A DNA stretch of 64,000 nucleotides from Chiloscyllium plagiosum (taxonomy: Eukaryota), in contig NC_057758.1 in assembly GCF_004010195.1 (NCBI RefSeq), positions 399,598 to 463,597 on the forward strand, given 5' to 3'. How positions within the stretch are numbered: position 1 is the stretch's first letter; every line of letters begins with the position of its first letter. Positions 2,345-59,525 of the stretch are shown in pieces. The notes under the pieces are model-generated. The model saw only the letters and a list, made by a program, of their open reading frames with translations, was not told the origin of the DNA and did not search any database. Both the position numbers and the translations under genes were made by a program.

Positions 2345-3113
2345 TCACTTCTGAGACCCCACAGCCCGTCTACCTTTCCAAATGCTTTTTAAAAAAGCCA
2401 AGGACAGCATAAATCCTTGGAAATAATTGCAGGGTTGGTGAGCTTCCTTTGGTAATAAACTGTACCTGTTAGTTTCATAATTCTTAAATCCATGGAACAT
2501 GGCAACCTGCGCAAGATCAAACTTGTGGTTCTCCATTTCTGAGTCACTTTCATTTCCACTCCTGGAGCTGGGCAGTCCAGCACGGGCTCTATTTTCCAAT
2601 AAAATACGTTTGAAGTACATAAGATTATCTAAATGAAGGGAATCTAAAAGACCGAGGCGCTGTAAAACTAGACGTGCCATATACCTGCATAATGTGAAAA
2701 AAAGCTTCTTTGGCCGGCAGCCTCACTGCCCTTTGTTAATAATTTGTTCAGGTTCATATGTAAACAAATTACAATTACAATCATGATCGTTATTACCAGC
2801 TTGATTGCAGTTCTTGAGTACAACACTGTGCTTGAAACATTTGGCAGCAGATAACCATAAATCGGTCAAGTGTGAACGACCCAATGCACCAAACTGACAG
2901 ATCAGGAGTGCCAGTAATCATACATTTAATTAAACTGTACAAAGGAGTAAAGGGCAGGAATGAACAAGGAACGTGATAACTGACAATTGGATGAATTCTT
3001 ACATTGTTGAACAGTATCAGTAGATCTGTTGCTGACATGTGCAATGTTTGAACAGTGACACACTTGGAAAGGCCACATTCTCTTTTTGAAAAAATCCAAT
3101 TTGTGGTCACATT
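2345..3113 (-). pseudogene. GPR139-like GPCR pseudogene A, exon 2 remnant
   Basis: Frameshifted pieces WIFSKRECGLSKCVT..ATDLLIL..PDLSVWCIGSFTLDRFMVICC, NRARAGLPSSRSGNESDSEMEN and KLTGTVYYQRKLTNP align with the intact gene at 53845-54761; acceptor CAG deleted; internal deletions. Confidence 0.9.
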
Positions 3114-3334
3114 GAGAGAGAAACAATAAGTGTGCCTGAAACATGATAATATGAGTCAGTTTTATTCATTTCAAAATAAACGAAAATAATTTAGTCAATT
3201 GTCACTGAGATCAGTTTGTAAAGTATAACAATGAGTCCACCAACACACGCTAAACGTTAAGGGAAGTTATTGTGACACCAGAAAGATGAAGTGAAAGGAG
3301 AGACACAAATGCAAGTTTCATTAAAGTAAAAAAA

Positions 3335-3675
3335 GTCGTTCCAGTATGGAAGCGGGTCATTTCGCCCATTGAGTTGACATCAAATGTCCAACGAGCGTCC
3401 TGCAGAGACCCATTCCCTTGCCCTCTCCCTGTAATCCTGCATTTACCAAGTCTAGCCTACAAAACCTGCACATCCCTGGACGCAATGTGCAATTTACCCT
3501 GGCCAATCCAGTCCACCTGTCCTGCATTACCTGAAATCGGAGCTGAGGGAGAAAACTCACATAGACATGTGGACATTGTGAAAACTGCATACAGGCTCCT
3601 GTCCGAGGTACGATTCGAACCTGTGTTCTTGGTCCTGTCTGTCAGCAGTTATAAACATTGAAGCACCGTCGATCC
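3335..3675 (-). mobile_element. HE1-type SINE, degraded, in intron of pseudogene A
   Basis: Reverse complement resembles SINE body (..GATGTGCAGG..) and B-box-like GGTTCGAATC. Confidence 0.75.
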
Positions 3676-3940
3676 ATCAGCTTTCAAAATGAGTTGTTAT
3701 GAAAGGGCAACCGGGAAGAAAATGGCGTTGCGACTCAATGCAGAAATAACCAAGTAAAACGATAGCAGGGCTCAACACAAAGAGAATATACTGGCTCACT
3801 ATGCCCTCTTGTGGCGTTGGGGTAGATCTCCCACCCCGGACGAAGAATCTCTGAAACAAGTTCACCGACTTCAGAGGTGTGTAAAACATTTTTTGAATAC
3901 GTTAATTAAGAAAAATAGGTTGAAAAATAATTTGGCACAA

Positions 3941-4010
3941 CGGGGAGATCAACAAATGCATATATCGGGTAGTAAATATCCTTCACCAGCGGAATTGCAG
4001 GTTTCATCGT
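3941..4010 (-). pseudogene. GPR139-like pseudogene A, exon 1 remnant
   Basis: 70 bp reading (T)MKPAIPLVKDIYYPIYAFVDLP versus MSKPAILLVKEIYYPLLALVALP in the intact gene; donor GTGAGT changed to TTGTGC. Confidence 0.9.
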
Positions 4011-4079
4011 TTTGTCTTCCATTGAGTGATTTCTGTTGAGCTTAAATAGTCCGATTTGGCATCTTCGAGGCGTGGAAGG

Positions 4080-4169
4080 GAATCTATATTTATGCATGCA
4101 TCAAACTTTCCGCAAATCAAGCAGTTATTTGGCTCACATTAATTGCTGTTATTTAACAAATATAGTCAG
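4080..4169 (-). promoter_or_regulatory. Paralogous proximal promoter of pseudogene A
   Basis: Blocks GAATCTATATTTATGCATGCAT (4080-4101) and ATTTAACAAATATAGTCAG (4151-4169) are identical to 59436-59457 and 59507-59525. Confidence 0.6.
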
Positions 4170-5519
4170 TTGAAGCAACATATTTGGTTTGCTGAAACAA
4201 ATATTGAAAGAAGCAAAATATTCGAAGGAGGGAAATCAGATGCATTAATACTGAAATGGCAGTTGGACTTTTAAATGCAAATTACCCTGTCACTACTTGT
4301 GGCTAACTTCTACGGTCCCAAAAGCATCTGATAGTTTACTATGCATAATCAGCTTCAGGCCAAAGTACTCTGAGATATGTACATTCTTGCGTTTCTTGTG
4401 TCTTGAGAATCTCCCACTCTGATCATAGATTTGTGGCTGTTCTATCTGGAACCTTTGAAACTTTTTGCATGTCTACATTCACTCAGCTCAACTCGTCAAT
4501 ATGTTTCCCAAATGCCGAGTTTCACACAGCTGTTGTTTGGGCTGCATCGCCTTCTCCCGTGCATGGGTATCTCTTTGAGTGTCTTCACCGAACCTTTTGA
4601 CTGTTGTGTTTTTCCCATGACAATTGATAAACCACTGAGTCCTTCCACAGCAGGTTGACTCACCGCAACTGATAATTGCTCAGGATGTGAAAGTTTGCAA
4701 TCAATCCAAATGGGTAAACGAATGCATCATGGTAATTGGACTTGCATTTTTATTTCGAATCACTGTGTCCCAATCTTAGTTATTACTTTGTTCAATGCAG
4801 CTTTCAAAGTCGATTTAATCCTTGGAATTGTCAGTTATTTTAGCTTTTCCTGCGATACTGTAACATTCCAAGACTTTTCGCTGATTATTATGCTTTATGT
4901 CTCTCCACCCACACCCAACCCTCCACCCCCCAAACCCCACACCAGGAATTCTATTCCAAAGAATAGACTACTGCTGCCTGAACTTAATTCTTTGCAAGAC
5001 CTGCCTACACTGAATGCATGTAGTACAGAATCGATTTAGTCAGGTTCTACGAAGAATCAGATGAATGGTCGCGTGATTTCGTTCACAGGAAGATAGTACC
5101 AACAGGGTTTCAACTCCTGCACTCAATTGGAAAACATTTATATTGTCAATAGCAAATATCACAAATCACATCTATCAGGAAATTCGCTGGCTACACGAAT
5201 TTGTTCCCCATCTGCTTGATTCCTCATGATTTCATCCGTAATCTGTATTATTGTCTCGAACATGCCTTTGTTGTGGAAGACGACATTTGGTAATCTCATT
5301 TATAAAATGCAAGAAAAGCAATTTTCTGAACTAATACGAAAGATCTAAATGTTAACACAACTTTTCATTCTTGCACTAACAAGACACTTAAGGATACGGA
5401 CCATTGTGGTTGTGTTTATTGACGAACCTTTTTGGTTCGACACTCTTCAGGCAACCATATTGTTTCCAGTTTTGCTGCATTTGCATCTCTTCTTAATCTT
5501 ACTGGTTGTTCCACCTCCA

Positions 5520-6860
5520 TTATTCATGTTACTACAGTTTATTTTTGTATAATATGTCATGAAAATTGATTATGTTCAAGCTTGCACTTTTTAATACAGT
5601 CGTCTTCAATAAGTCTCAGTCTACCGTTTCAACTCCTCGCCTATTTCTTTTGATAATAACCTCTCCCAGTTCCCAGATCTCTTCACCCACTTTCACCACT
5701 CTCCATACACCTGCAACATACACACCTGCCTTTTCCCTGGACTCGAGCTGGTCATTCAGAACTGTTACCTCAATTTGTTACCTCAATTACTCTTCCCTCC
5801 CTTCGCCCTTGCAACATCGCTCACTCTGAACTAACTGCACTGCGTGTTCTCGTATCAAACCTAATTTTGTAATTAAGCCCGCCAAAAAGCATGGAGTTGG
5901 TGTTGACTGACGTCCTGACCGCGACAATGCTGAGGCTGCACGCCAGGTTTCAGATGTTTCCATCTATCGCCCCTTGGATCATGACCTCAATATTGAACTT
6001 CAGGCGAGTGCATTCACAATTGTTGCTAATTCATGTAGTGCTTCCACTATACCTCCACTACAATTCATGTAGTGCTTCCACTATACCTCCTTCCAACTGC
6101 ACATGGCCCACTTCTACCTCCTTCCCAGAATCTGCAAACGAGATTGCCAGGACAGGCATATTATTACTGCCATTTTCTGCTCCACGGATCCCATCTCTTT
6201 CTACATTCAATTCAAATTTTTCTTCCCTTATCCAGTCCGTTCTGCCTTTCATCAACTGCATCTCTGTCATTATACATCAAAGTAAGAACTTCCTGCCACT
6301 TCTTCTTGACGTGAAATTCCTTTTCAAGCATATTTCCCGTCAGGATAGTTTCAGAGCTCTCCAGCTATTCATGGAAAAGAGGTCTGAACTGTTGCCATCC
6401 ACCAACACAGTCCTGACATTGGCCGCACTTGCCCTCATACTGAACGAATTGTCTTTTAGCTCCGCTCGCTTTCTTCAGGAGAAACGTGTGCTCCATTCGG
6501 ATTTCATTTTCCTCAAGTCCATCTCTGACTTCTCCCCGACGGTCTATATCTCTATTTTCTTTTCTGGGGATGGGCTGGTCACAAATATCCAGTACAAACC
6601 CACAGGCTCAAACGGTTATCTTGACTCTACCTTCCACATCCTATTTTCTGTCATGACTCTACTTCATTCTATCAGTGTGTGAGTCTCCGTGACGTCTGTT
6701 CTGATCTTACAAACATCGATAAGGGATCCCCCAAAATGTTCACATCGACTGCAGATTCCTCAGCACTGCAGCTGAACGAGCTCCAAATGAGATGTGTTCC
6801 ATCTCCTGTACTTCATCTAATCACCCCTGTTTTCCCTTTGAACGATGTAATGGGGAATTG
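5520..6860 (+). mobile_element. Penelope-like element, degraded RT region
   Basis: VIKPAKK (cf. IKPADKG), DVKFLFKHI, LILNELSF, LVTNIQYKPTGSNGYLD: PLE RT motifs with deletions. Confidence 0.8.
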
Positions 6861-6869
6861 ATTCACCCC

Positions 6870-7610
6870 CGGAAGTCTGCGATCTGATTGGAGACTGATC
6901 CATTTTCTGATGACTTAGTTTTCTGAGTACCTTTTCCATAGAGATGCTGATTGCTCGTAGTCCTGCCCTTTCTTTAGTCTCTGACTTGCCCGTTCCAACA
7001 GAAATTGTTGTGTTTTCCTTCAAAGTGAAAACAGAGGCAAAGTCATGATTTTGCATCTCTGTTATTTTACTGCTCTCCATTATTAACTCTCCAGTTATAT
7101 TCTTCAAGCGATCAATATCGATATTAGCGATCCACTTTAATTTAATCCACCTACAGAAGCCTTTGGTTTCCTATTCGACACTTTATGCTGGTCTCCTTTC
7201 GTAAATTACCCGAGTATTCTTTTATTTCTTTTTTTAGTACCCCTGTGTTTAAAATTGGCATTTTCCCAATATTCCAGGATGCCTCTCTTCTTAGCCATTT
7301 GGTACACTTTAGTTTTTGTCTTTGACCTCCTTGTGTAACCATCAATGTTTATTTATTGCCACTTTTACCATCTTTCTCCCTGACTGGGATTTATTCACTT
7401 GTTTGGAATTGAGCAGCTCCTGAAACATCTACCACTGCTCTTCAGCTGTCAAACTTCTGAGGATTCCTGCACAATCTACTCAGGCCAAATCTGTCCTCAT
7501 GCCGATGTAATTTCCTTTGTTTCATGCCACAATACTCCTTTGTGACGTAATTTTCTCAGTCCCAAAATTAATTTCAGATCCTACCAGACTGTGATGACCA
7601 ATCTTAACGG
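6870..7610 (-). mobile_element. Old CR1 fragment
   Basis: FASVFT..KVLRKL in ORF 6817..7107. Confidence 0.7.
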
Positions 7611-7639
7611 TGACGATCCTTAACGGTGATATCAAAAAT

Positions 7640-7847
7640 TAATCTTGGCAAGTGCAAGGACTAAAGCAATTTGGCATGTCTAAAGAGGGATGGATGCATC
7701 CAACGAATAGAAAAAAACCAACAGAGCATTGAGGAACAAAGGGATCTGAACATAAAAGCACATAAATACTGATAGTGTCAGCAGGGGTAGACACAGTGGT
7801 GAAGAATGCATACAATATGCTTGCCTTCATTAGCAGTGGCATAAAAT
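7640..7847 (+). mobile_element. Old CR1 fragment; continues at about 14120-14700 after the nested minus-strand CR1
   Basis: VVKNAYNMLAFISSGIKY here, then MEYCVNFW..RLGFYSVEQRRL after 14120. Confidence 0.7.
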
Positions 7848-16289: not shown

Positions 16290-16350
16290 GTGATGCTTTA
16301 GATTATTCAACACTTTTACTCTCCAATTCTAGCTGTCATCGGTAATCCTG
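16290..16350 (+). pseudogene. Probable exon 1 remnant of GPR139-like pseudogene B
   Basis: Reads VML*IIQHFYSPILAVIGNP+G (cf. EIYYPLLALVALP+G), ending at the same phase-1 position; donor appears mutated GT>AT (ATAAAT). Confidence 0.65.
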
Positions 16351-20398: not shown

Positions 20399-20438
20399 GC
20401 AAACGTTTCGTCCCCTGGCTAGGTGACATCATCAGTGC
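20399..20438 (-). ncRNA. Minimal type I hammerhead ribozyme motif, copy 2
   Basis: Same as copy 1 except one change at the unpaired stem II position. Confidence 0.8.
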
Positions 20439-22334: not shown

Positions 22335-22645
22335 CTAACATAGTGACGATTGTAGCCCTGTATCTCCAAATGCGTTGCATGCTATCTTACGGCCATGTCT
22401 TTTGCAGACTTACTGATCATCATTCTTGATCGAATTCTGAGACATATACCATTGATTATTGTGATAACATTTTTTGTTCATTCTTTTGAATTTCCTTATC
22501 TGTAATTTTAACTCTACCTTAATATTTGCTGTCACAGATTGGTCCGTCTGGTTCGCCATCACTTTCACTTTTGACTGATTTGTAGCCATTTCTTGCCAGA
22601 AGCTGAAAGTTAAATACTTCACTGAAAAAAGTGGCATACATTGTT
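22335..22645 (+). pseudogene. GPR139-like pseudogene B, exon 2 5' part
   Basis: Acceptor CCTCGCAG|CT AAC (phase 1, A-N-I-V-T-I), frameshift, SKCVACYLTAMSFADLLIIILDRILRHIP, TDWSVWFAITFTFD*FVAISCQKLKVKYFTEK (DRF arginine codon now TGA). Confidence 0.9.
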
Positions 22646-24265
22646 ATAGAACATAGAACATAGAAGAATACAGCGCTGTACAGGCCCTTCGGCCCTCGAT
22701 GTTGCGCTGATCCAAGCCCACCTAACCTACACTAGCCCAATATCCTCCATATGCCTATCCAATGCACGCTTAAATGCCCATAAAGAGAGAGAGTCCACCA
22801 CTGCTACTGGCAGGGCATTCCATGAACTCACGACTCGCTGAGGAAAGAACCTACCCCTAACGTCTGTCCTATACCTACCACCCCTTAATTTCCTATCTAA
22901 TGCCCGCTTAAATGCCCATAAAGAGAGAGAGTCCACCACTGCTGCTGGCCGGGCATTCCATGAACTTACGACTCGCTGAGTGGAGAACCTACCCCTAACT
23001 TCAGTCCTATATCTACCCCTCCTTAATTTAAAGCTATGCCCCCTTGTAATACCCAAATCCATACGCGGGCAAAGGTTCATACTGTCGACCCTATCTCACC
23101 CCCTAATCATCTTGTACACCTCAATCAAGTCACCTCTAAACCTTCTTTTCTCTAGTGAAAACAGCCCCAGGTGCCTCAGTCTTTCCTCATACGATTTTTC
23201 TTCCATACCAGGCAACATCCTGGTAAACCTCCTCTGCACCCGTTCCAGTGCCTCCACATCCTTCCTATAGTATGGCGACCAAAACTGCACACAATATTCC
23301 AGATGCGGCCGTACCAGAGTCTTATACAACTGCATCATGACCTCAGGACTCCGGAACTCAATTCCTCTACCAATAAAAGCCAGTACGCCATATGCCTTCC
23401 TCACCGCACTATTTACCTGGGTGGCAACTTTCAAAGATTTGTGTACATGGACACCAAGATCCCTCTGCTCATCCACACTACCAAGTATCCGACCATTAGC
23501 CCCGTACCCCATCTTTTTGTTATTCTTCCCAAAGGGAGTCACCTCGCACTTAGCTACATTGAATTCCATCTGCCACCTTTCTGCCCAGCTCTGCAGCTTC
23601 TCTATATCCTGCTGTAACCTGCCACATCCTTCCTCACTGTCAACAACTCCTCTGACTTTCGTATCATCCGCAAACTTGCTTACCCAACCTTCTAACCCCT
23701 CTTCCAGGTCATTTATAAAAATGACAAACAGCAATGGTCCCAAAACAGATCCTTGCGGAACACCGCTAGTGACGGCACTCCATGAAGAAACTTTGCCATC
23801 AACTACTACCCTCTGTCTTCTTCCATCCAGCCAATTCCTAATCCAAACCTCCAGCTCACCCTCAATGCCATATCTCCGTATTTTCTGCAGTAGCCTACCA
23901 TGGGGAACCTTATTAAACGCCTTACTAAAATCCATATACACTACATCTACCGCTTTCCCCTCGTCCACTTCCTTAGTCACCTTCTCAAAGAATTCAATAA
24001 GGTTTGTGAGGCACGACCTGCCCTTCACAAAACCATGCTGACTATCCTTGATCACATTATTCCTATCCAGACGTTCATAAATCCTATCCCTTACAATTCT
24101 CTCTAAGACTTTGCCCACAACAAAAGTGAGACTCCCCGGCCTATAGTTACTAGGGTTGTCCTTACTCCCCTTCTTGAACACGGGCACCACATTTGCTAGC
24201 CTCCAGTCTTCTGGCACTACTCCTGTAGACAACGAGGACATAAAAATCAAGGCCAATGGCTCTGT
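22646..24265 (-). mobile_element. Young 5'-truncated CR1 inserted in exon 2 of pseudogene B
   Basis: 394-aa open RT frame with YMDFSKAF, GVPQGSVLGPLLF, FADDTK; (AGAACAT)n tail at the left end; 138-bp tandem duplication near its 3' end. Confidence 0.95.
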
Positions 24266-24791
24266 TCTAGAAACTGCCACTGTATTTCAGACTAGCACAT
24301 GCATGTTGGTTCAGGAATTTCCCTTGTGATTTCGACATCGTCAAAATTGTGGTACAAACGACAGTTTGGGCATCTTAGACTACTTTCTAAATCCTGAAAT
24401 GCCATTTATCCTGCTTCTGTTGATCAATGCCTTCATTATCAGATATATCGCCATGACCTGCAAAGCTCGCACGAGACACCCGATTTCCAGCAATGGGGAA
24501 CGCTCCACCGACTCTGAGATGCAAAGTCGAAGGAAATCAATCATCTTACTGCTAGTTGTCTCGCTAAATTTTATTTTGTTCTGGTTCGTGTTTATGGTGT
24601 ATTCTATATGGAATGCAACGTATGTCATTGGCTATGAATCTGCATATTTAGATAATTATCTACTCGAATTCGGTTTAATGCTTCAACTCCTCAGTTTCTG
24701 CACAAATACCGTTATTTATGCTGTGGCCCAGACTAACTTCAGAGAGCAATTGGAGGATTTAGTGAAAAAGCTCTTTTACATCAATTACTAA
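24266..24791 (+). pseudogene. GPR139-like pseudogene B, exon 2 3' part (TM5-TM7)
   Basis: PFILLLLINAFIIRYI..STDSEMQSRRKSIILLLVVSLNFILFW..LQLLSFCTNTVIYAVAQTNFREQL; AATAAA just after the stop. Confidence 0.92.
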
Positions 24792-25499
24792 CTTAATAAA
24801 ATCTTCAAAAAAGGAGTTGGTAGTAAAAGTGATACATTTTTCCACAACTAACTTTCCCCAGGTCAAACAGTTAGAAACCAGTGTAGAAAAACAAATGGTC
24901 TCTCACAGGTTCATGTTTAGACATCACACAACACTTCGGTCTCATCACGTGTTAGTGACAGAGGCACAGTGAGGATACACCTTCATTCCTTTGTTGTCCA
25001 CATCATGATCCGTCTGCTCTCCCATAATTCAGTGCAACAAAGGAAAAACAGTCAATTAGCTTCCTGCAGCAGTGAGTTTCAACACACTGTCAATCGGTAC
25101 TGATAACTTTGAACAGGTTAGACATTATAGTGAAAGTTGTCTTCAGAGATCCTTGCATATTTGGTTTCATTTATGATGGTTCAGTGAAGATATCCAAATG
25201 ATGCCGTCAATTTCCCTTCAGCTCAAGAACAATTTTTTTTTACACCGAAGGAAAACGGCAGGATATAAATGAGGGTGGAGATATACGCAGAGTTCAATCT
25301 CAGAAATACTTCCACAAATTTTGACAAACAGAGGTTAATGCATTCTGCAGTGATCTCCTTCACAGTCCCAAAATCCCTTTAAAGTTCTAATTCCGTCTTC
25401 GTCTTCAATTTTATCCTCAACAGTCTTCTTCCCTTATATTCCATAAATGCTGTATCAATTAAAAAAATACAGACAGAACTGCATTCTAGTTCTGAGTCT

Positions 25500-26565: not shown

Positions 26566-27689
26566 TTATTCTACTAAATCTCCTTTGAAATCACTCGAGG
26601 ACTTTGACATTCAAACGCTAATAAGGTGCGCAGAACTTTATATTATAATTCAAATATAGTCTGCCAATGATTTGTGGAGACGTAGAGTTATGGATTTATA
26701 CTTTTTGCCCCTCTTTACCAGAATCGCATAAGCCTTCTTAATGAGATACCAACTTGCCTGGCCAGCTTCAGCGAATCATGCACTTGAACCATAAATTTCC
26801 TCTACTCTAATACTTACCTCAAAATTCAGAACACGTGACACATTTCCAGTTCTCATCCCCTTAACCATTTTACACTTCAGATCACCTGACTCTTTTCAGT
26901 TCCGACGAACAGAACCATTTTGCAGTTATCATCCCCTGAGCCTCTTGCCACTTCTGGTCCAAAGCCACTCTCCCCCAGCGCTGCCCCTTTTTCAACCAGT
27001 TTTCTGTTCTGACACATTTCCATACCTTATTACTGAAGCCTATTTCTGTTGTGAGCCCTTGAGCACGTTTCCCACTTTTGAATCATAGAATCACAGAATT
27101 TCCCATTACAGAATAACATTATTCCATTCATCGTGAATGTACCGGGTCCAAAAGAGCTGCCCAGCTGGTCACATTATCCAACCCTCTACTCAAAGCCCTG
27201 TGAATCCAACACTTTTAATTATATATCCAGTTCTCGTTTGAGACCTCATTTACATTCCACGCTATAATTGTCCCAGAAAGTGCATTCCAAATCTGAGTGA
27301 AGCAGATTCCCCTCAATTCAATCCTAGCTCTCTTACGAACAATCTTGAAATTGTGACCTCCAGTTACTGTGATACAGGGGAAAAAATAACAGAGCTTCCA
27401 TTGGCATCCCAAAGAGTTTCGTAATTAAAGTCTTTGTGCCATCATGAAGGCACCTTAGGAGAATGGCCAGACAAGTAAGTACATAGTTGGGAACTGAATG
27501 ATTTATTTTCATGGTAGGAATGATTTGCCTTGCGACGTTCCATCTCCTTCACGTGTCTTTGATGAATATGTTCGCGAGTTGTAGTGTTGCGACTTGGTGT
27601 GATCTAGAATCTACTCGTGTCGATAGACACTGAACACTGAGCTCGAAATGACCTGGTACAGAGGAACTTAAATATTTGAGGCAAGAATG

Positions 27690-29548
27690 GACATGAGCAA
27701 AATGAGCAAATGTGTAAACAACGAGAAGGTGAGACAGTGTCCCAGTTCCCTACTCTCCCCATTGAAGCCCAGAACGCCCATAGTGGTCTGAGACCACTCG
27801 ATGACATAACGGCGGCAGAAATAACGCCATATGAAGAACATCTGACGAAAAGCTTCATCAGTGGAATGAAGGACGAAATAGAGAAGAAGGTAAAGGACAC
27901 ATGTATTGCCTGGGACGGTAAAGCTGAATTTGATAGAACAACATGCGATAGATGATGAGAAGTTGCTTCCCAAGAGAAGGATAAACGGAAACTAAAGATG
28001 GAACAGCAAGCACATAAGCGCAGCTTACTCTGATGCAGATGGTCGCCCAGCCATAGGAGAGAGGTGCTGCTGAAAAAGAGAGAGGAAGATGCACTGGCAG
28101 TGGTAGATCTGGGGGTGGCTTTGTTTGTGGAGCATTAGATCACTGGGCAGGACAGTGCCCACACAGACAGCCTCAATTGGCCCAGACGGTTGGACAGCAG
28201 GGTGACGAACAGGGGAAGGCTGACGTGGAGGTGGGCAGCCCACGAGGTACAGGTAAGCCTCTTTCCTTTATGCTTGGCAACGAAGACTTGCTTGTGTTAA
28301 TCTCTTCTACTAACCTTACGGGCACTGAAACATGTCCCACCTCCAAACTGAGCGCTGAGATTGCAGAGCATGGACCATATGTTCAGGACAATGATGATGC
28401 GTATAAGTCAATGCCTACCTCTATATTATATGTGCAATGTACCCCAGTAACCTTTTTTGGCAGATGCAGGGGCATCCCTGAAAGGCTTATTAGTGACAAT
28501 GGGACATCATTTGTCAATAATGCCCTACAGCAGATCAGTGATTATTTGGGAATAAACATGAGGCAACACTGTGTCTACCACCCACCGAGAGTTGGGGCAG
28601 GAGAAAGAGGATATGCTACCTTAAAAAATAAATTGACAAAATGTTGTGAGGAACTAGGGGTGACATGGACAAATGCACTTCTAATTGTGCTAATGTATAT
28701 GAGATCTAGAAGGAGAGGAAGAGCTAATCTCAGCTTGCTTAAGATTTTGTTCAGTAGGCCGCCCAACACAGGAATTGGCCCGAATCCTAAGGTAAGACAG
28801 GTAACAGTCCACTATGAGGATGAGATGTTGTGTTACTGTATGAAACTCTCTACACTTTTGTCTGAAATACAGAATCAAGTGAAAGCAGCACTACCCCAAC
28901 CAGCAGAAGGGAAGCTGCACAATTTAAAACCTCGATAGTGTATAGTGGTGAAAGATTTCAGGAGACAAAAATGGAAAGCGAAGAGTTGGCTGCTACTGTT
29001 TTAAATGCTCCTTACAACACAGCCAGCTGTTGAGATCACTGATTTTTAGTTATCTGGCTCTGTATTTTTTTTAAAATCTGGCTTTTTTTGTGTTGTCCAT
29101 GTTGTCATAAAATGACAAAACGGGGAAATGCAATGGGAAATTAACAAAATTAACATTTACTTTGAAATCTGTTAAATAATACCTTCCTAAGTCAATTAAA
29201 TGCAGAGAATCTGACTTCGCTGAATTCTGTGAACTGATAGCCTGTCCTTACAAGTTTTGCAAACAATCTAATTCGGCAGAGTCAGGGGAAAACACAAGGG
29301 CAGTAGCTGTATTTTCCAACAGTGAAGGAATGGGAAAACAACTCCTTCTGAGGAAAAGGGCTCGAACTGTTCCCAAGCTGATTGTCATTGAGGTGAGATA
29401 AGGCTGAGCGAAGTATGGTATAAAGGAAACATATGAATGATACTCGGGGCCCTTGTCAAATGCATGCAATGCAGAGGTTAAAATCATTAAAATCTCTTTT
29501 GGTTGCTCTTGCTAATAGCTGAGTCGAGTCAATTTAATTTCCACGACA
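27690..29548 (+). mobile_element. Deleted endogenous retrovirus (class I/epsilon-like): gag remnants, integrase, PPT, 3' LTR
   Basis: MHR-like CKQREGETVSQF; zinc knuckle (G)FVCGALDHWAGQC at 28117-28158; integrase GIPERLISDNGTSFVN..HCVYHP..GAGER..TLKNKL; PPT AAAACGGGGAAA at 29117-28; LTR 29129-29548 (TGCAATGGGAAATT...AATTTCCACGACA) with TATAAA and ATTAAA. Confidence 0.8.
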
Positions 29549-33099: not shown

Positions 33100-34737
33100 T
33101 TTAGTGCTTCCCCTACCTCCTCAGACTCCACACACAAATTCCCTATGCGATCGGCCCTACTCTTTCTTTGACCATTCTCTTATTCCTCACATAAGTGTAA
33201 AATGCCTTTGTGTTCTCCCTAATCCGTTCTGCCAAGCCTTTCTCGTGCCCCCTCTTGGCTCTCCTCAGACCATTTTTAAGCTCCTTCCTTGCCTGCCTGT
33301 AATCCTTTAGAGCTGAGCCTGACCCTAGCTCTCTCCACCTTATGTAAGCTACCTTTTTCCTTTTGACGAGAAGCTCCACCGCTCTCATCATCNNNNNNNN
33401 NNNNNNNNNNNNNNNNNNNNNNNNNNNNNNNNNNNNNNNNNNNNNNNNNNNNNNNNNNNNNNNNNNNNNNNNNNNNNNNNNNNNNNNNNNNNNNNNNNNN
33501 NNNNNNNNNNNNNNNNNNNNNNNNNNNNNNNNNNNNNNNNNNNNNNNNNNNNNNNNNNNNNNNNNNNNNNNNNNNNNNNNNNNNNNNNNNNNNNNNNNNN
33601 NNNNNNNNNNNNNNNNNNNNNNNNNNNNNNNNNNNNNNNNNNNNNNNNNNNNNNNNNNNNNNNNNNNNNNNNNNNNNNNNNNNNNNNNNNNNNNNNNNNN
33701 NNNNNNNNNNNNNNNNNNNNNNNNNNNNNNNNNNNNNNNNNNNNNNNNNNNNNNNNNNNNNNNNNNNNNNNNNNNNNNNNNNNNNNNNNNNNNNNNNNNN
33801 NNNNNNNNNNNNNNNNNNNNNNNNNNNNNNNNNNNNNNNNNNNNNNNNNNNNNNNNNNNNNNNNNNNNNNNNNNNNNNNNNNNNNNNNNNNNNNNNNNNN
33901 NNNNNNNNNNNNNNNNNNNNNNNNNNNNNNNNNNNNNNNNNNNNNNNNNNNNNNNNNNNNNNNNNNNNNNNNNNNNNNNNNNNNNNNNNNNNNCCAGGAA
34001 AATCCTTCCCACTAGTTGGTCTACCTCTTGCTATTGCCTCGTCTGGATCAACTCTCACCTCCGGTATACAGCTCAGGTTCCCACCCCCCTGCCATACTAG
34101 TTTAAACCTTCTCGAACTACTCGAGCAAACCTTCCACCCAGGACATTGGTCCCCTTCCAGTTCAGATGCAACCCGTCCTTCTTGAACAGGCCCCACCTTC
34201 CCCAGAAGGCATCCCAATTATCGACATATCTGAAGCCCTCCCTCCTACACCAGCTGCGCAGCCACGTATTAAGCTGCGCCCTCTCCCTGTTACTCGCCTT
34301 GCTATCTCGTGGCACCGGTAGTAAACTAGAGAACACTATTCTGTTCGTCCTGCTTTGCAGCTTCCATCCTAACTCCCTGAAATCACTTTTTATATCCTCG
34401 ATCCTTTTCCTGGCTATATCATCAGTGCCAATATGTACACTCCTTCTGTGAAAGGGAAAATATCGCTGTCCGCTACCGGTAAGTAATTTTTTTTAAAACT
34501 GCCTTACCTTAGCTGCAGTCTTCCGGGTTCGTCTTATCTCCGTTGCTGCTCGCACTCAAAATGGCCGTTGGCGTCGAAGGGTGAGTATTTATACTCACTG
34601 CTTTCCTTTCCGGCTGCCCCTCTGGTCCTCGTCACATCCCCCGCTGCTCCCGCTCCTTCTGTGAAAGGGAAAACACCGCTGTCCGCTACCGGTAAGTATT
34701 TTTTTAAAAAACTGCCTTACCTTAGCTGCAGTCTTCC
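33100..34737 (-). mobile_element. Young CR1 5' portion spanning the gap: 5' UTR repeats, ORF1 esterase, part of ORF2
   Basis: SGNH-esterase-like SLLPVPR..LNTWLRSWCRREGFRYVDNW..KKDGLHLN; ORF2 ENTKAFYTYVRNKR; 213-bp period repeat at 34440-34737. Confidence 0.85.
33393..33993. other. Assembly gap (601 N)
   Basis: Run of N. Confidence 1.
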
Positions 34738-37130: not shown

Positions 37131-37714
37131 GGTTATATCTGTACTTATACCCCTCCACAATGGAAATTCAAAATCTGCGAGCCGTGATACAAATTTACTG
37201 AAGAAGTTTGAAATATATCGTGATATTTGCATTAGAGCCAGGGTTCAATCACTCTTTTAAGAAATATGAATGATATTATTCATTTGGGAAAGAAGCTAAT
37301 TGCTTCATTCGTGGTTACTACATTGTGTGAATATCGGCTCTGTTGAATTTATCATGTTAATTCATCACCTGGAATCGCAAACTCGTATGTAATCAGCCAC
37401 CCTATTCAAACCAAGAAGTATCAAACATTTACAGGAATGAAGTGGTTCCTATTCTGTGCTTGCAGGAACAGATAAGGCTGTGGATACAATGGCGAAATTA
37501 CATACTGTTGAAAAAATACTACTTTTGGAATTCCCCATTTATTGTCAACTACACGCATTTTTATTTTTGTGATTTGTTGCAAGTGAGCGGTTTTGCAATA
37601 TTCTTTAATAGAATTACAATGATTTCTCGTTGTGATTGATGTATTAATCCATTTCGTTGATTTTTGTTGTTTTAGTCTCCATAGAAACATATATTACAAT
37701 CCACAGGATAGGCA

Positions 37715-37975
37715 TCTATTTGATTCCTTCACTTCGTTGTAAATCCTGGATCCACATCTAATCCAATTCTGTTGTTTAATGCCTTAATCAGCAGACATAT
37801 CGCCATGACAAAAAAAAACTCGCATGAGACTCTGGGCTTCAAGCAATGGAAACAGCTCCAGGGATTCAGAGGAGAGTCGAAGGAAATCAATCAGCTTATT
37901 TTTAGTTGTCAGGGGAGTATTGTTGTGTTATGATTCATGATAATGATATATTCTGTATAATGTATTATGTATTCC
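37715..37975 (+). pseudogene. GPR139-like pseudogene C fragment (TM5-TM6), paralogue of pseudogene B
   Basis: FLHFVVNPG..ILLFNALISRHIAMT(fs)TRMRLWASSNGNSSRDSEESRRKSISLFLVV aligns with 24366-24610. Confidence 0.85.
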
Positions 37976-50377: not shown

Positions 50378-50504
50378 CCTTGTTCCCTTGTTCAAAAAGG
50401 GGAGTTTAGTGTAGTTTAGGTGGGCTTGGATCGGCGCAACATCGAGGGCCCAAGGGCCTGTACTGCGCTGTATTCTTCTATGTTCTATATGTTCTATGTT
50501 CTAT
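50378..50504 (+). mobile_element. Micro CR1 insertion: 3' UTR and tail plus a short internal ORF2 piece
   Basis: TSD GTAC; TTGTTCCCTTGTTCAAAAAGGG joined to GGTGGGCTTGGATCGGCGCAAC..(TTCTATG)n. Confidence 0.8.
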
Positions 50505-52400: not shown

Positions 52401-53604
52401 AAACAAACAGAAATTGTCAGAACGATGAAAACGCAGAAAATGGAGTGAAAGAGGGAGAAAGGATAACAGACAGATCGAGGAAGGTGGAATGTCAGAAAAA
52501 TGATGAAGACAAAGCGAGGAATGAAGAACAGAAGCACAGGAATACATGTACAAAGAAAATAATGACACTTGGATACTCGGAGCGCTTCAGGTATTGAGCG
52601 AGTCCAGGAAGGATATGTGGGAGGAACAGGGGAGGAACAAACGATGAACAACAGTGAGGGTATAGGAGGGCGTTCGCTGGAGAAAGAAAGAGGGAAAGAA
52701 AAAAACACAACCGATTTGTTTGTCGATGGGACAGTGCGTGGGATGCCAATGTGAAATGTTCATTTGTGTTGTCAGAAATGAAAGCAATGGCACGGCTATT
52801 TAAGCCCAGCTGCTGAGTTTGTGCCACTTCCCTTCTTCTCAGGGAGCAAAACCAGCGTGGAATATCAATGGACTGGCTATGGACTGTTTATTCCGTAGAA
52901 TATCAGTCGTGTGAAAGAGACATATCAAATATCTCATTTATTTCCCAACTGATGCAGAGAACCAGCAATGAAGTTACTCAACCAATCCAGAAAACGGTAA
53001 TTCTGCACGAGATGGTAATTGTGTTTACTATCTTCACAGATGCTGCGAGGCATGCTGAATTTCTTCATCATGTTTTTTGTTTATAATGTTACTGAAGAGG
53101 CTGCTGGACAAATCGTGTGTGCTGAGAAAATGTAGCTTTAATGAGAAGGAAACACCAATTGTAAAAATTGACCAATAAAGTGAGCTTTGACATCGATGGA
53201 CTGAGTGAGGACTGTTTCCTCCACAGAATGTCAGTCTTGTGAAAAAGTTCTGTAAAATTTCTCATTGATGACCTCTCACACATAATGTATCCACCCCCTA
53301 CAATATCCTGATCCAGTGTTCTGAGAATTAAGAAGACATGCGGACCTACCATCCCGTTGCTTGATATTAAATGAAACTAGATTGAAGTTTCCGAACACAC
53401 GTCTTCGATCTCGATGGATGAAATTAAACCATTTGTTTTTCATGTGCATACTCAAATCTACAATCATCAGATAAAGTCTCTGAATGCAGGGTGTGCTGTA
53501 TTCTATGAAGAATGTCCTCTTTACTCAACAAAGAATTAGGAAAACAGAAAAGAGTTGTTATATCAAAGGTTAAAATCAAATGAACTGCGGATGTTGTAAA
53601 TGAG

Positions 53605-53710
53605 AACAAAGAAAACAAAATTTTCTGGAAAAGCTCAGGAGCTCTGGCATCAGCAGTGAAGTGGAACCAGAGATAATGTTTCTGGTCCAGTGATCCTTGC
53701 TCAGAACCTA
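53605..53710 (-). mobile_element. Old PLE 3' terminus with decayed hammerhead
   Basis: Minus strand GTTCTGAGCAAGGATCACTGGACCAGAAACATTATC. Confidence 0.5.
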
Positions 53711-53844
53711 CATCATAGGCAGTATCGGAAATCCAAGAATATAGAAATGAATGTGCACTATTTAGCCAATTAATACCATTCTTTCTGTTGGAAAAATACA
53801 TGGGAAGAAACCTGCATTAAGCAGTACCATTTGCTGTGCTGAAG

Positions 53845-54761
53845 TCATTTCAACGAATTCGGTCTACCATATCTCCGAATTAAAATCCATGGAGATTTTG
53901 CCATATTCTTCAGCTCTGCTCTGAATTTGCTCTGGGCCGCTGCATAAATACAAGGGTTTAAGAAACAACTAAAATACTTCAAGATATCTGCCGTTTCCAT
54001 GGCGATAAATTCAGGATCTGTGAATTTCCCTCTGTAATAAATGGTCCCTGTAAGTTTTGTAATGCCTAAAGCCACAGCAAGTGGCAACCACAGCAAAAGA
54101 AAACATATTGTGATAGAGAATAATAAAATGATAGACCTTCTGCGGTTCTCCATTTCTGAGTCACTTTCATTCTCACTCTTCGAGCTCCGGAGGCCAGTGC
54201 GCGTTCTATTCGCCAATACAATACGTTTGACAATTAGTGAATTGCACAAGACAATCAGAGAAAAGGGAATCCAAACGACACAGGCGCTGTAAAACCAGAC
54301 ATACCCTATACCTGCAGAAGATGAGAAAAATGCTTCACTTGACCGGCAGCCCCACTGCACATTGTTAATTATTTGTTGGGGTTCATAAGCAAACAAAACT
54401 GGTATTTCCTTCAATACGATCACAACGGTGATGGTTATTACCAGCATAGTTGCAGTTCTTTGGGTACAGTACTGTGCTTTAATCTTTGAGCAGCAGATTA
54501 CTACAAATCGGTCAAACGTGAAAGAGACAACACACCAAACAGACAAATCTGGAGTGATAGCAGTCAAATAAATTATGACTGTACAAAGAGGGGTATGGGA
54601 AAGGAATGACCAAGGAAAGTGATAAGTGAATATGTAATAGAGTATTACATTATTGATTAGGACCAGCAGATCTGTTGTTGCCATGGCCAGCATGTAAACA
54701 GTGACACATTTAGAAAGGCCACATTTTCGCTGTGAAATAATCCAAATTGTGGCCAGATTTG
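53845..54761 (-). CDS. GPR139/GPR142-like class A GPCR, exon 2 (apparently intact; 328 aa with exon 1)
   Basis: Acceptor TTTCTCTCACAG|CA AAT; open frame (A)NLATIWIISQRKCGLSKCVTVYMLAMATTDLLV..PLC..FTFDRF..WGC..DSEMENRRRSIILL..LLWLP..LNPCIY..SKFRAELK; seven hydrophobic segments when joined to exon 1. Confidence 0.93.
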
Positions 54762-55009
54762 CTGTGAGAGAAACAGAAGTGAATATTATTACTATACCAA
54801 ATGCTTCCAGTATTTTATCATAATTGTTGAAATATGGTAATGTGAGTCTTTTTTAAATTCCATTAATAATATATGAAAAAATATTTCATCAATTACAACG
54901 GAGATCAGATTGTAAGGAATAACAAACATGCAGGATTATTAAGCAACATAATTGAAACACTACCAGGATGAAGTGAACGCAGAGGTCAGAACAAAAGATT
55001 CATTGAATC

Positions 55010-55322
55010 ACTGTGGAGGGAGGACGGTTTGCCGAAAGCGTCCATGCCAACTTGCTGAAGACCAAACTGCCCAGATGTACTCCCCTGCCCTATTCTTGAT
55101 GTAATTATGCATCGACCTTAGCTAACCGAGCAAGCCTGCATGTCCCTGGACACGATGGGGAATTTCGCTTGGCCATTGCTCATGACCTGCTCATCTTTGT
55201 CTGTGGGTCGAAAGTGGAGCCGCTGTTGGAAACTCACAAGGACACCGGGAGAACAAACAAACTCCACCTCGAAAATCGCCCAAAGCAGGATTCAAAACCG
55301 GTTTCCTGGCACTGTGAGCCAC
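55010..55322 (-). mobile_element. Degraded HE1-type SINE in the intron, same position as the SINE in pseudogene A
   Basis: Reverse-complement SINE body; flanks align with 3120-3330. Confidence 0.7.
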
Positions 55323-55349
55323 GATAGATAGATAGATAGATAGATAGAT
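55323..55349. repeat. (GATA)n microsatellite
   Basis: GATAGATAGATAGATAGATAGATAGAT. Confidence 0.95.
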
Positions 55350-55372
55350 GGGGAAATTGATCTACAGAGAGA

Positions 55373-58300
55373 GCATAGAACATAGAAAAGTACAGCATAG
55401 AACAGGTCCTTAAGCCCGCAAAGTTATGTTGAGGTTTAATCCTAATGTAAAATATAATAACTTAACCTAAACACACCTCAACTTACTGCTATCCATGTGC
55501 ATGTCTGGCCGCCGCTTGAATGTCCCTAATGACTCTGCTTCCACGACCACCGCTGGCAATGTATTGCAAGCATTCACAACTCTCTGCGTAGAGGAGCTAC
55601 CTCTGACGATTCCTCTATACTTTTCTCGTAATATCTCAAAACTGTGACCCCTCGTACCAGTCAATCTTGCCCTGCGGAAATGACTCTGTCTATCCCTCTC
55701 ACGATCTTGCATACCTCGACCAGTTCTCCTCTCTTCCTCCTTCTCTCCAGAGGGAAAAGTCCGAGCTTATTCAACCTATCTTCATAAGGCAAGCCCTCCA
55801 GTCCAAGAACCATCCTGATGAACCTTCTTTGCACCCTCTCCAAAGCCTCTATATCGTTCCTACAGTAGGGCCATCAGAACTGGATACAATATTGTGATAT
55901 CACCAGGGATTTGTAGAATTGTAGCAAAAACATCGCGGCTCTTAAACTCAATTCCCCTGTTAATGAAAGGCAAAACATCATAACCACTTGGGTGGAAACT
56001 TTTAGGGATCTATGTACTTGCACACGCATATTCCTCTGTTCCTCCACTCTGCCAAGAATTCTGTCTTCAATCCTGCATGCAACATTTCAGTTCGACTTTC
56101 TAAAAATGCATCACTTCGCATTTATCCAGAATGAACTTCATCTACCATTTCTCAGCCCAGTTCTGCATCCTGTCTATGTCGCGCTGCAGCCTGCAATAGC
56201 ACTCGATACGATCAATGGCACATCCAACCGTTGTGTCATCTGCAAATTTACTAACCCACCCCTCATCCTCCTCATCCAAGTTATTTATAAAAACGACAAA
56301 GAATTGAGGTCCAAGAACAGAGCCCTGTGGGAACCCACTCATCACTGACCTCCAGGTAGAATACTTTTCAAATACAACCGCTCTCTGCCTTCTGTCAGCC
56401 AACCAGTTCTGAATCCAGATTGCCAAATCTCCCTATATCCCTAACTTCCTGGCTTTATGAATGAGCCTACCATGGGGTACCTTATCAAATGCTTTGCTGA
56501 AGTCCATATACACCACAGCCACTGCTCGACTTTTGTTGACCTGTCTTGTCACCTCCTCAAAGAACTCAATAAGATTTGTGAGGCATGACCTCCCCCTCAC
56601 AAAGCCATGTTGAGTGCCTTTAATCACACTATGCTTTGCCAAATAGTTATATATCCTATCATTCAGAACTCTTTCCAAAAATTTGCTGACCACAGCCGTA
56701 CGACTGACTGGTCTCTAATTGCCAGGGATTTCCCTATTGACCTTCTTGAAAAGTGGAACAACATCTGCCTCCTTCCAATCCTCTATGCGACTCTCGTGGA
56801 GGCGAAGATCCTCGCCAGCGACTGAACAACCTCCGGTCTCGCTTCCCGGAGCATCTTACTGTAAATCTGGTCTGGCTCTGGGGACTTATCAATCTTAATG
56901 TTTTCCAAAATTTCCAGCACATAAACTTCATCAATTTTAATCTGTCAAGCCTGTATCCCAGCACCTCAAAGTTTTCATTCATAACAAGATCCATTTCATT
57001 AATGAAAACCGAAGCCAAGAACTCATTTAGGTCTTCCCCATCGGCTCAGACTCCATGCACAAGTTCCCTGTGCTATCACTTACCGGCCCTACGTACGTCC
57101 TGATCATTCCCTTATTCCTAACGTATGAGTAAAATGCATTTGTGTTCTCCCTAATCCTTCTTGCCAAGCCTTTTTCGTGCCTCCTCCTGGCTCTCCTCAG
57201 TCCATCTCTGAGCTCCTTTCTAGCAAGCCTGTACTCTTCTAAAGCTGTGCTAAATGCTTGCTTCCTCCACCTTACGTAAGCTGCTTCTTCATTCTGAAGA
57301 GATACTCCTCTGTTCTCGTCATCCTTACCCATTCCTACTTGTCTTAGAGGAATAAATGCTTGCAACACCTATTGATTACATTGTCTCCACATGTCTGTTG
57401 TGCCCTTTCTGTGGAACAATTGCTCCCAGTTTGTAATTCCCAACTCCTGTCTCACAGCGTCATAATTTCCTTTTCCCCAATTAAATATCTTCCCTTGGTA
57501 ACTGCTCCTTTCCCACTCTAAGGCTACGGTAAATGTGAGCCAGTTGTGATCACTGTCACCAAAGTGTTCTCCCACCGTGAGATCTCACACCTGTCCTGGG
57601 TCATTGCCGAGCACCAAATCCAAAATGGCCTCTCCTCTCGTCGGTCTGTCCACATACTGAGTAAGAACATAGAACATAGAACATAGAACATAGAACATGA
57701 GATCTCACACCTGTCCTGGGTCATTGCCGAGCACCAAATCCAAAATGGCCTCTCCTCTCGTCGGTCTGTCCACATACTGAGTAAGGAAACCATCCTGAAC
57801 ACACCTGACAAATACGGCCCCCAATCCATCTGCAATTCGGAGGTTCCAATCGATTTTGGGAAAGTGGAAATCGCCCATAACAATAACCGTGCTACATCTG
57901 CATTTTTCCAAAATCTGCCCGCCTATGAGTTCTTCAAGTTCTCTACTGCAATTAGGTGGTCTGTAGAAAACTCCCAATGCGGTGGCTGTTCCCTTTCTGT
58001 TCCTAACTTCCACCCATACTGACTCAGTAGACAAACTTTCCTCAACAACCTACGTTTCTGCAGCTGTGATGCTCTCTCTGATTAGCAATGCTGCACCCTC
58101 TCTTTTTTTCCACCCTCCCTACTTTTGGAAAAGTTCTAAATCCTGGAACATCAAGCAACCATTCCTGCCCCTGTTAAACCCATGTCTCAGTTATGGTCAC
58201 AAAATCGTAGCCACAAGTACAGATCCATGTACTGTGTACATCACTCTTATTTCAGACACTCCTTGCATTAAAGCAGACCCACTTTAACCGGTTCCTTTGT

Positions 58301-59065
58301 TTCATCGCGTGAGAAACAGTCCCGATAGATTTAATACATCATGTTACTGCCCCATCTGCAACTGTCCCCTCTCAGATATGTGGCTCTGATCCCAACAACC
58401 CGCCAAACTAGTTTAAACCCTCCTGGATCACACGAGCAAATCTCGCACTCAGGACATTTGTGCTCCTCCAGTTCAGGTGCGACCCGTCCTTCTTGTAAAG
58501 GTCCCACCTTCCCCAGAAGGTATCGCAATAGTTTCTGAAGCCCTTCCTCTTGCACGAGCTTCAAAGACACATGTTAAGCTACATTTGCTGACTGTTCTTC
58601 ACCTCACTATCTCGGGCACCGGTAGCAAATCTGAGATCACAACTCTACTTGTCCTGCTCTTCAGCTGCCAACCTAACTCTCTGTAGTCACTTTTCACATC
58701 CTCAACCTCTTTCCTGGCTATATCAATCATGCCAATGTGTATCACGATTTCTGGCTGTTCACCCTCCCCCTTAAGAATCTTGTTAACACAATCAGCGACA
58801 TCCTAGACCCTGGCATTGCGGAGGCAACATACCTTCCGGGAGTCCCGTTTCTGACCACAACATTTCCTGTCAATCCGCCTAACTATGGAGTCCATTATCA
58901 ATAGCGCTTTTCTATTCTCCCATCTTCCCTTATGAGCCACAGTGCCAGGCTCAGTGCCAGAGACCTGACAACTATGGTTTTCCCCTGGTAGGCTATCCCA
59001 ACCAGCAGTATCCAAAATGGTATACTTATTGGAGAGGGGAAAGACACAGGGGATCCCTGCTCTGA
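55373..59065 (-). mobile_element. Long CR1 (part of ORF1, EN, RT, tail) in the GPCR intron, sense to the gene
   Basis: ESVWVEVRN..GVFYRPPN..MGDFHFP, GDSDHN, YMDFSKAFDK, FADDT; (AGAACAT)n tail at about 55373. Confidence 0.92.
57578..57785. repeat. Perfect 88-bp direct duplication flanking 32 bp of CR1 tail repeat
   Basis: 57578-57665 identical to 57698-57785; spacer AACATAGAACATAGAACATAGAACATAGAACA. Confidence 0.95.
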
Positions 59066-59296
59066 CCAGTGGTTCAACTACTTCTCAAAATCATTTGCTA
59101 TGAAACGTTGACATGGAACAAATTGGTCGCTTGACTCAAAATGCGAATAACCAAGCAAATAGATGAAAGCGGTACAAAGGAGTACAATACTGGTGACCCT
59201 GATGCTGGACCGGGAAACACTGCCTGCTCCAGTGGGTGTAAAATATTTTGGAAATAGTTAATTAGGAAAAACAGTTTTAAAAATAAATTGACTCAC

Positions 59297-59366
59297 CGGG
59301 AAGAGCAACCAGTGCAAGTAATGGGTAGTAAATCTCTTTTACCAGCAGAATTGCAGGCTTACTCAT
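59297..59366 (-). CDS. GPR139-like GPCR exon 1 (MSKPAILLVKEIYYPLLALVALP + G)
   Basis: AAAATG start, 70 bp, canonical donor CCCG|GTGAGT, phase 1 matches exon 2 (G+CA = Ala); supplies TM1; paralogous exon at 3941-4010. Confidence 0.9.
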
Positions 59367-59435
59367 TTTGTGTGACAGTGAAGGACTTCGGTATTGCTGA
59401 AATACTCAGATTAGCCACATCCAAGGCATGGAAGT

Positions 59436-59525
59436 GAATCTATATTTATGCATGCATTAAACCTTTGGGGAATCAAACAATTGCATTACTCACGTTAATC
59501 ACAGTCATTTAACAAATATAGTCAG
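59436..59525 (-). promoter_or_regulatory. Putative proximal promoter: TATA-like CATAAATATAG and forkhead-like TATTTGTT
   Basis: About 75 and 145 bp upstream of the ATG; two blocks identical to those of pseudogene A. Confidence 0.6.

What the first reader, a model, noticed from the sequence alone, without database searches (positions are those of the whole stretch)
2345..59525. Birth-and-death tandem cluster of two-exon GPR139-like receptors, a candidate orphan sensory receptor family
Seen: four GPR139/GPR142-like loci in 64 kb, one intact and three dead, in two subfamilies on opposite strands. A, B and the intact gene show a short exon 1 ending ..P+G and a phase-1 intron before A-N; all four share a (D)SE(M)ExRR(K/R)SI-type motif before TM6 (partly deleted in A). 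Established: mammalian GPR139 and GPR142 are single-copy receptors activated by aromatic amino acids (L-Trp, L-Phe), and sharks have few classical olfactory receptors. Inference: tandem expansion, a high pseudogene fraction, a very short N-terminus and divergent loops match the pattern of chemosensory or immune-sensing receptor repertoires. This may be an uncharacterised amino-acid/peptide-sensing family in cartilaginous fish. Automated annotations may already list such genes; the function is the open question.
Basis: partly seen in the sequence, partly recalled or inferred. Interest (0 to 1): 0.78.

Follow-up and report, generated by a model that had tools for sequence, protein, structure and literature searches.

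The report
Huge overlooked shark receptor gene family
One intact and three dead genes here belong to a family of more than 600 cell-surface receptor copies in this shark genome that databases mislabel as the brain receptor GPR139; their varied binding pockets and shared smell-gene-like promoters suggest they are likely an overlooked set of chemical sensors, but their tissue and ligands are untested.

Summary
Observation confirmed: one intact two-exon, 328-aa class A GPCR (exons 59366-59297 and 54761-53845, minus strand) and three relics (nhmmer E 4e-85 to 7e-21), in two subfamilies on opposite strands. The family is far larger than the window suggests: six capped searches of this genome gave 647 distinct exon-2 loci, 510 looking intact. 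It is not GPR139/142: both exist separately as single conserved genes; trees put the family outside them (AU p 7e-7), next to low-copy salamander, coelacanth and teleost orphans; the Trp/Phe pocket is lost and the TM3-ECL2 cysteine pair that GPR139/142 lack is invariant. Pocket positions are the most variable TM sites, yet close paralogues show purifying selection (dN/dS 0.27), not an arms race. Promoters across subfamilies share an EBF-like palindrome just before a TATA box (28 of 52, 0.4 in shuffles). Paralogues appear at low level in RNA of unnamed tissue. Best reading: an independently evolved chemosensory repertoire (0.55); 'amino-acid sensing' is unsupported. No description found in eight literature searches. 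This scan noted the same family before on other DNA (60 findings, at least 15 genomes).

The parts
59297..59366 (-). Gene D exon 1 (23 codons + G; short N-terminus and first half of TM1)
53845..54761 (-). Gene D exon 2 (TM1 second half to stop); Pfam 7tm_1
   Evidence: no listed indel in DNA-type runs
54762..59296 (-). Gene D phase-1 intron, 4,535 bp, largely LINE fragments
59444..59520 (-). Predicted proximal promoter of D: Fox-like site (59518-59512), TAAT cores, EBF-like element (59471-59462, three mismatches to the palindrome), TATA-like box (59450-59444)
   Evidence: promoter profile hit E 3e-18; binding not tested
3941..4007 (-). Pseudogene A exon 1; donor reads TT; promoter relic upstream (4217-4008)
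2406..3113 (-). Pseudogene A exon 2, same subfamily as D; frameshifts, deletions, four stops
16293..16350 (+). Pseudogene B exon 1 relic; in-frame stop, donor reads AT (weak profile score 7.9 bits)
22335..22649 (+). Pseudogene B exon 2, 5' part; acceptor intact; stop in DRF
22650..24300 (-). CR1-type LINE fragment inserted in B exon 2 (396-aa RT-like frame 24286-23099); boundaries approximate; element name recalled
24354..24791 (+). Pseudogene B exon 2, 3' part (TM5-TM7)
37685..37957 (+). Pseudogene C: TM5-TM6 relic of the B subfamily

Best explanation
The four loci are one intact and three dead members of a class A GPCR family of at least 647 copies in this genome, separate from GPR139/GPR142, that likely serves as a chemosensory repertoire, most likely in olfactory or other sensory neurons. 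Shown: two-exon structure, 7TM fold, family size, birth and death in tandem arrays, purifying selection on intact copies, diversified pocket, shared promoter layout. Inferred: each subfamily would bind a different class of water-borne small molecule or peptide in the pocket under the TM3-ECL2 disulfide, signal through a conserved intracellular face to one shared G protein, and be switched on sparsely by EBF/homeodomain/Fox factors at the proximal promoter, as odorant receptor genes are.
For: Size: 647 distinct loci from six searches capped at 123-134 hits each, 510 without internal stop and with an open frame of 295 aa or more, 462 on the 51 large scaffolds; 88 further family-like places. Cartilaginous fishes average 43.8 known olfactory receptor genes (PMC10869828 passages). 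Birth and death: 39 loci in 864 kb scanned, 14 intact-like, 23 broken, 2 undecided. Pocket: mean entropy 2.53 bits at 30 pocket-facing positions against 1.92 at 52 other extracellular TM and 1.16 at 113 intracellular TM positions, 122 intact copies, p 1e-4 and 5e-11 (pocket list recalled). dN/dS 0.27 over 37 disjoint paralogue pairs, intracellular TM 0.19. Promoters: EBF palindrome with at most 2 mismatches in the last 200 bp in 42 of 52 genes (shuffles 15.5), 8-20 bp before a TATA box in 28 of 52 (shuffles 0.4, other bins 0-1), homeodomain core within 10 bp in 11 of 52 (1.2), Fox site 10-60 bp before it in 21 of 52 (0.7); EBF-like sites occur in all six subfamily groups; no excess of octamer, ETS, RUNX, E-box, NF-kB sites. 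Mouse OR promoters are enriched for Lhx2 and Ebf sites (PMC5608512 passages). Paralogues are found in RNA: 68 reads in a poly-A single-cell run and 29 contigs in a second run lie on exon 2 and 3' flank of one member at 80% likeness.
Against: No tissue is known: the RNA runs are unlabelled, only 2% and 6% of two runs were read, one gave no reads, and none covered gene D's exons convincingly; many laid reads fit only partly and some may be DNA-primed. Catshark brain-plus-olfactory top-50 specific genes held no GPCR (PMC11979771 passage), and shark olfactory neurons are reported as microvillous, TRPC2/Go-positive with V2R dominance (PMC10116579 passages). Pocket dN/dS among close paralogues is 0.26, no higher than other extracellular TM sites (0.29), so no positive selection was seen. 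Promoter rules were set after seeing the sequences, the 52 promoters are related by descent and 17 come from the window's subfamily group; EBF also acts in B cells and other cells (recalled). Gene D's own EBF-like site has three mismatches. Intact exon 2 does not prove an intact gene, and unplaced contigs may duplicate copies.
Confidence: 0.55

Rival explanations
1. Leukocyte or barrier-tissue sensing repertoire (like formyl-peptide or MRGPR receptors) detecting microbial or damage products, driven by EBF1 in B-lineage or other immune cells.
For: Tandem arrays, many pseudogenes and variable pockets fit this as well; EBF-like promoter element is also a B-cell factor site (recalled); catshark or1 and or4 are spleen-specific (PMC11979771 section 13).
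Against: No excess of octamer, ETS, RUNX, E-box or NF-kB motifs; no positive selection at pocket sites among close paralogues; homeodomain core beside the EBF site in 11 of 52.
Confidence: 0.2
2. Internal peptide or metabolite receptors (gut endocrine cells, brain, gonad), keeping the ancestral role of the wider GPR139/142-MIP/FMRFamide receptor group and expanded for a shark-specific physiology.
For: Nearest solved sequence to the family profile is human GPR139 (E 7e-20); that group is related to protostome neuropeptide receptors (PMC8514136 passages); the model has a beta-hairpin ECL2 and resembles peptide receptors; low-copy orthologues persist in bony vertebrates.
Against: Hundreds of receptors with different pockets are hard to match to endogenous ligands; GPR139 pocket residues are not kept.
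Confidence: 0.15
3. Mostly neutral copy-number drift: segmental duplication in repeat-rich small chromosomes with few functional members.
For: 23 of 39 scanned loci are broken, 15 of 19 around and in this window; arrays are LINE-rich.
Against: dN/dS 0.27 (95% 0.24-0.31); invariant C3.25, ECL2 Cys, D2.50, D3.49, N7.49, Y7.53 in 122 of 122; subfamilies shared by sharks and skates; conserved promoters.
Confidence: 0.07

Closest known systems
GPR139 and GPR142 (human GPR139, PDB 7vug/9m42)
   Same: Best PDB match of the family profile (E 7e-20); same phase-1 intron in the codon before N1.50 (canonical shark genes and 117 of 117 family copies); YY...P-A-N TM1 start; W6.48 mostly kept.
   Different: 24-36% identity in local matches; both exist as separate single genes in this genome (L104, L103); family lies outside their clade; Trp/Phe pocket lost; C3.25-ECL2 pair present here, absent there; longer ICL3 with the DxExxxRRKS motif.
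Unnamed low-copy vertebrate orphans annotated 'probable GPR139' (salamanders P0444/P0503, coelacanth P0453, teleosts P0460/P0483, caecilian P0494; amphioxus P0472/P0482)
   Same: Salamander gene is the sister of the family (100/99), all vertebrate forms make one clade (100/98); salamander protein keeps both cysteines and the EMARRRRSI motif.
   Different: Few 50%-identity clusters found outside elasmobranchs against hundreds of copies here; copy numbers in those genomes were not counted; function unknown.
Vertebrate chemoreceptor repertoires (OR, TAAR, V1R/ORA, T2R, FPR)
   Same: Works like them in genome behaviour: tandem arrays, pseudogenes, short N-terminus, variable pocket, EBF/homeodomain-like promoter sites.
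   Different: Not a member by sequence: Pfam gives only 7tm_1 for gene D; coding intron in TM1; expression untested.

Membership tests
Class A (rhodopsin-like) GPCR | 7tm_1 profile above cut-off and 7TM fold | tested here: met
   Pfam 81.8 bits, cut-off 30.5; AlphaFold model of exon 2, pLDDT 78, TM about 0.7 to peptide receptors
Class A (rhodopsin-like) GPCR | N1.50, D2.50, D/ERY, P5.50, W6.48, NPxxY, TM3-ECL2 disulfide cysteines | tested here: met
   DRF, NPCIY in D; cysteines 122 of 122; P6.50 rare and P7.50 in 50 of 122 across the family
GPR139/GPR142 | Falls inside the GPR139+GPR142 clade | tested here: not met
   GPR139+142 100/100 without the family; AU p 7e-7 for family+139+142 alone, 7e-51 for family+139 (34 rows, LG+G4, long branches)
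GPR139/GPR142 | Trp/Phe-binding residues E3x32, F3x33, H5x43, W6x48, R6x51, N7x38 (PMC5430874 abstract, PMC12775434 passages) | tested here: not met
   Gene D has T, A, Y, W, L, D; only W6x48 is common in the family (94 of 122); all six kept in shark GPR139 and GPR142
GPR139/GPR142 | Phase-1 intron before N1.50 | tested here: met
   a shared ancestral trait of the wider group
GPR139/GPR142 | Single-copy, highly conserved gene | tested here: not met
   canonical genes are elsewhere, 85% to human GPR139; family has 647 or more loci
OR / V1R / T2R families | Family-specific Pfam profile (7tm_4, V1R, TAS2R) | tested here: not met
   none listed at E up to 0.1 for gene D
Chemosensory receptor repertoire (functional class) | Large, clustered, pseudogene-rich family with diversified pockets | tested here: met
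Chemosensory receptor repertoire (functional class) | EBF and homeodomain sites in promoters | tested here: inconclusive
   motifs enriched and positioned but post hoc, related sequences, binding untested
Chemosensory receptor repertoire (functional class) | Sparse expression in sensory neurons; activation by environmental ligands | not testable with these tools
   RNA runs lack tissue labels

The most novel reading that the evidence does not exclude
Sharks and rays smell or taste with a separate, independently evolved repertoire of many hundreds to over a thousand class A receptors derived from an ancient orphan lineage beside GPR139/142, overturning the view that cartilaginous fishes have the smallest chemoreceptor repertoire among vertebrates.
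Probability: 0.45. Interest if true: 0.92.

Novelty: new variant of a known kind. Interest (0 to 1): 0.74.

Why it matters
Reviews report about 44 olfactory receptor genes in cartilaginous fishes and a 'relative paucity' of GPCRs (PMC10869828, PMC8455134 passages), which is used to argue that sharks trade discrimination for sensitivity. A family more than ten times that size, hidden under the automatic label 'probable GPR139', changes GPCR counts for sharks whatever it does. If sensory, it would be a new vertebrate chemoreceptor family of independent origin; if immune, a very large unrecognised sensing system. Existing catshark tissue RNA-seq can decide between these in one analysis.

Tried and rejected
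Single-sequence PDB search did not list GPR139 among 60 shown of 67; only the profile did. Foldseek does not single out GPR139 in its top 50: the fold is uninformative about ligand. NCBIfam gave nothing. No RNA holder was listed for gene D and laying two single-cell runs on it gave no exon coverage: no evidence either way. Positive selection at the pocket was sought and not found. The capture-recapture figure of about 2,000 loci is not used: the samples are not independent. The strict palindrome TCCCNNGGGA occurs in 0 of 52 promoters and TAATKR alone is barely enriched (43 of 52 against 42 in introns). The careful mixture-model tree did not finish; one search is the quick tree. No chimaera member appeared in the lists examined, but these show only top hits, so absence is not shown. 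The zebra-shark karyotype preprint does not mention these genes. Literature searches found no description of the family; subscription journals are mostly not covered, the catshark paper's supplement could not be read and only 12 of 24 whale-shark supplements were searched, so an earlier mention may exist. A genome search with the basal member L145 could not be run, so its copy number here is open.

Full report
1. Observation. The window holds one intact gene D (exon 1 59366-59297, exon 2 54761-53845, minus strand, 328 aa) that scores 81.8 bits on Pfam 7tm_1. A nucleotide profile built from 121 other intact paralogues finds four loci: D, A (3113-2406, minus), B (22337-22649 and 24375-24801, plus) and C (37685-37957, plus), E 4.5e-200 to 6.9e-21, with nothing better than E 6.7 in the reversed window. 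A carries frameshifts, deletions and four stops; B has a stop in DRF and a LINE insertion; C is a TM5-TM6 fragment. A pairs with D (74% nt), B with C (71%) and with neighbouring genes L149/L152 on the same scaffold. Splice sites of A and the donor of B are decayed. Exon 2 of D shows no listed indel in two DNA-type runs.

2. Family size. A search with shark GPR142 listed 130 family-like places, 88 of them new (10 non-family or canonical rows left out by eye; only some of the 88 were checked). These are lower bounds; unplaced contigs may hold duplicates. Scanning 864 kb gave 39 loci: 14 intact-like, 23 broken, 2 undecided; around and in the window 4 intact and 15 broken in 464 kb (the C44 and C46 stretches were chosen for known intact hits). 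In protein databases 297 relatives were found for D and 1,134 for the basal member L145; all named ones among the 120 listed each time are sharks, skates or rays, mostly labelled 'probable GPR139'.

3. Relationship. The genome has true GPR139 (L104, 85% to human) and GPR142 (L103) elsewhere. A profile search of 1.84 billion representatives and name look-ups for 30 of the hits found low-copy relatives in salamanders, coelacanth, teleosts, a caecilian and amphioxus. Trees give the family as one clade (99/97), sister to the salamander gene (100/99), inside a vertebrate clade (100/98), with amphioxus next (89/88) and GPR139+142 apart (100/100). Forcing family+GPR139+GPR142 together is rejected (AU p 7e-7), family+GPR139 more so (7e-51) (34 of the 62 rows; long branches apply). 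Kinship with the wider group remains: best PDB hit of the profile is human GPR139 and the phase-1 intron before N1.50 is shared (117 of 117 testable copies and both canonical genes). That wider group is linked to protostome MIP/FMRFamide-type receptors (PMC8514136 passages).

4. Anatomy. GPR139 needs F109, H187, W241 and N271 for activation (PMC5430874 abstract) and binds agonist through E108, R244 and N271 (PMC12775434 passages). These are kept in shark GPR139 and GPR142 but, apart from W6x48, are variable in 122 family copies; D has T, A, Y, W, L, D. The family has invariant C3.25 and ECL2 cysteines, which the canonical genes lack. Entropy is 2.53 bits at 30 pocket positions (list recalled from class A numbering), 1.92 at other extracellular TM and 1.16 at intracellular TM positions. 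Among 37 disjoint close pairs dN/dS is 0.27 overall, 0.26 in the pocket, 0.19 intracellular, 0.40-0.48 in ECL2/ECL3: pockets differ between subfamilies and are conserved within them; no positive selection was seen. The model of exon 2 (pLDDT 78) is a 7TM bundle with a hairpin ECL2, resembling peptide receptors generally.

5. Promoters. Exon 1 was located in 62 loci (21-28 codons, G|GT donor); 52 had enough upstream DNA. An EBF-type palindrome with at most two mismatches lies within 200 bp of the ATG in 42 of 52 (shuffles 15.5), 8-20 bp before a TATA-like box in 28 of 52 (0.4; other bins 0-1), with a homeodomain core within 10 bp in 11 of 52 (1.2) and a Fox-like site before it in 21 of 52 (0.7), across all subfamily groups. 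Lymphoid-type motifs are not enriched; the strict palindrome is absent. Consensus patterns were recalled and positional rules set after viewing the data; promoters are related by descent. Mouse OR promoters are enriched for Lhx2 and Ebf sites (PMC5608512 passages); EBF also works in B cells (recalled). Earlier notes of this scan mention such promoters too (read), so they are not independent support.

6. Expression. No reads covered D's exons. At 80% likeness, 68 reads of a single-cell poly-A run (2% read) and 29 contigs of a guessed-RNA run lay on exon 2 and 3' flank of another member; none of the 29 reached 95%, which fits transcribed paralogues better than genomic DNA; two other runs gave nothing. 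Tissue is not given.

7. Mechanism and rivals. Most likely (0.55) a chemosensory repertoire: subfamily-specific pockets, one shared signalling face, sparse expression set by EBF/homeodomain/Fox factors. Against it: no tissue evidence, no GPCR in the catshark top-50 brain-plus-olfactory list (PMC11979771 passage) and reports that V2Rs dominate shark olfactory neurons (PMC10116579 passages). Rivals: immune sensing (0.2), internal peptide or metabolite receptors (0.15), drift (0.07).

8. Novelty. The genes are machine-annotated under a wrong name. Searches found no paper describing the family; surveys give cartilaginous fishes a mean of 43.8 olfactory receptor genes (PMC10869828 passages) and a relative paucity of GPCRs (PMC8455134 passages). 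Unread supplements and subscription journals may hold a mention. The scan has noted the family in 60 findings from at least 15 genomes. Verdict: real, a new variant of a known kind, interest 0.74.

Noticed in passing
window 27600-28935 (+): Decayed LTR-retroelement-like stretch: a CCHC zinc-knuckle-like motif followed by an integrase-core match (Pfam rve E 2.6e-4, below cut-off). Described only.
   Followed up: no
L145 (G000:C13, near 83.78 Mb): A slowly evolving, apparently old subfamily (93% to zebra shark, 62-75% to other sharks, skates and rays); one manta model of it is fused with the name prenylated Rab acceptor 1, hinting at a fixed neighbour useful for synteny.
   Followed up: partly
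P0444, P0453, P0460, P0483, P0494: At least three unnamed bony-vertebrate orphan GPCR lineages also carry the label 'probable GPR139' and form a clade with the shark family.
   Followed up: partly
L031 and L038/L103 (G000:C24); L033 and L104 (C21): Galanin-receptor-like genes share scaffolds with GPR142 and GPR139, in line with recalled human linkage.
   Followed up: no
L275-L276 (G000:C46, 3.56-3.58 Mb): Long degenerate tandem repeat giving several open frames of 260-370 codons inside a receptor array.
   Followed up: no
window 33390-33990: 601-base run of N between loci B and C; a further fragment could be hidden there.
   Followed up: no
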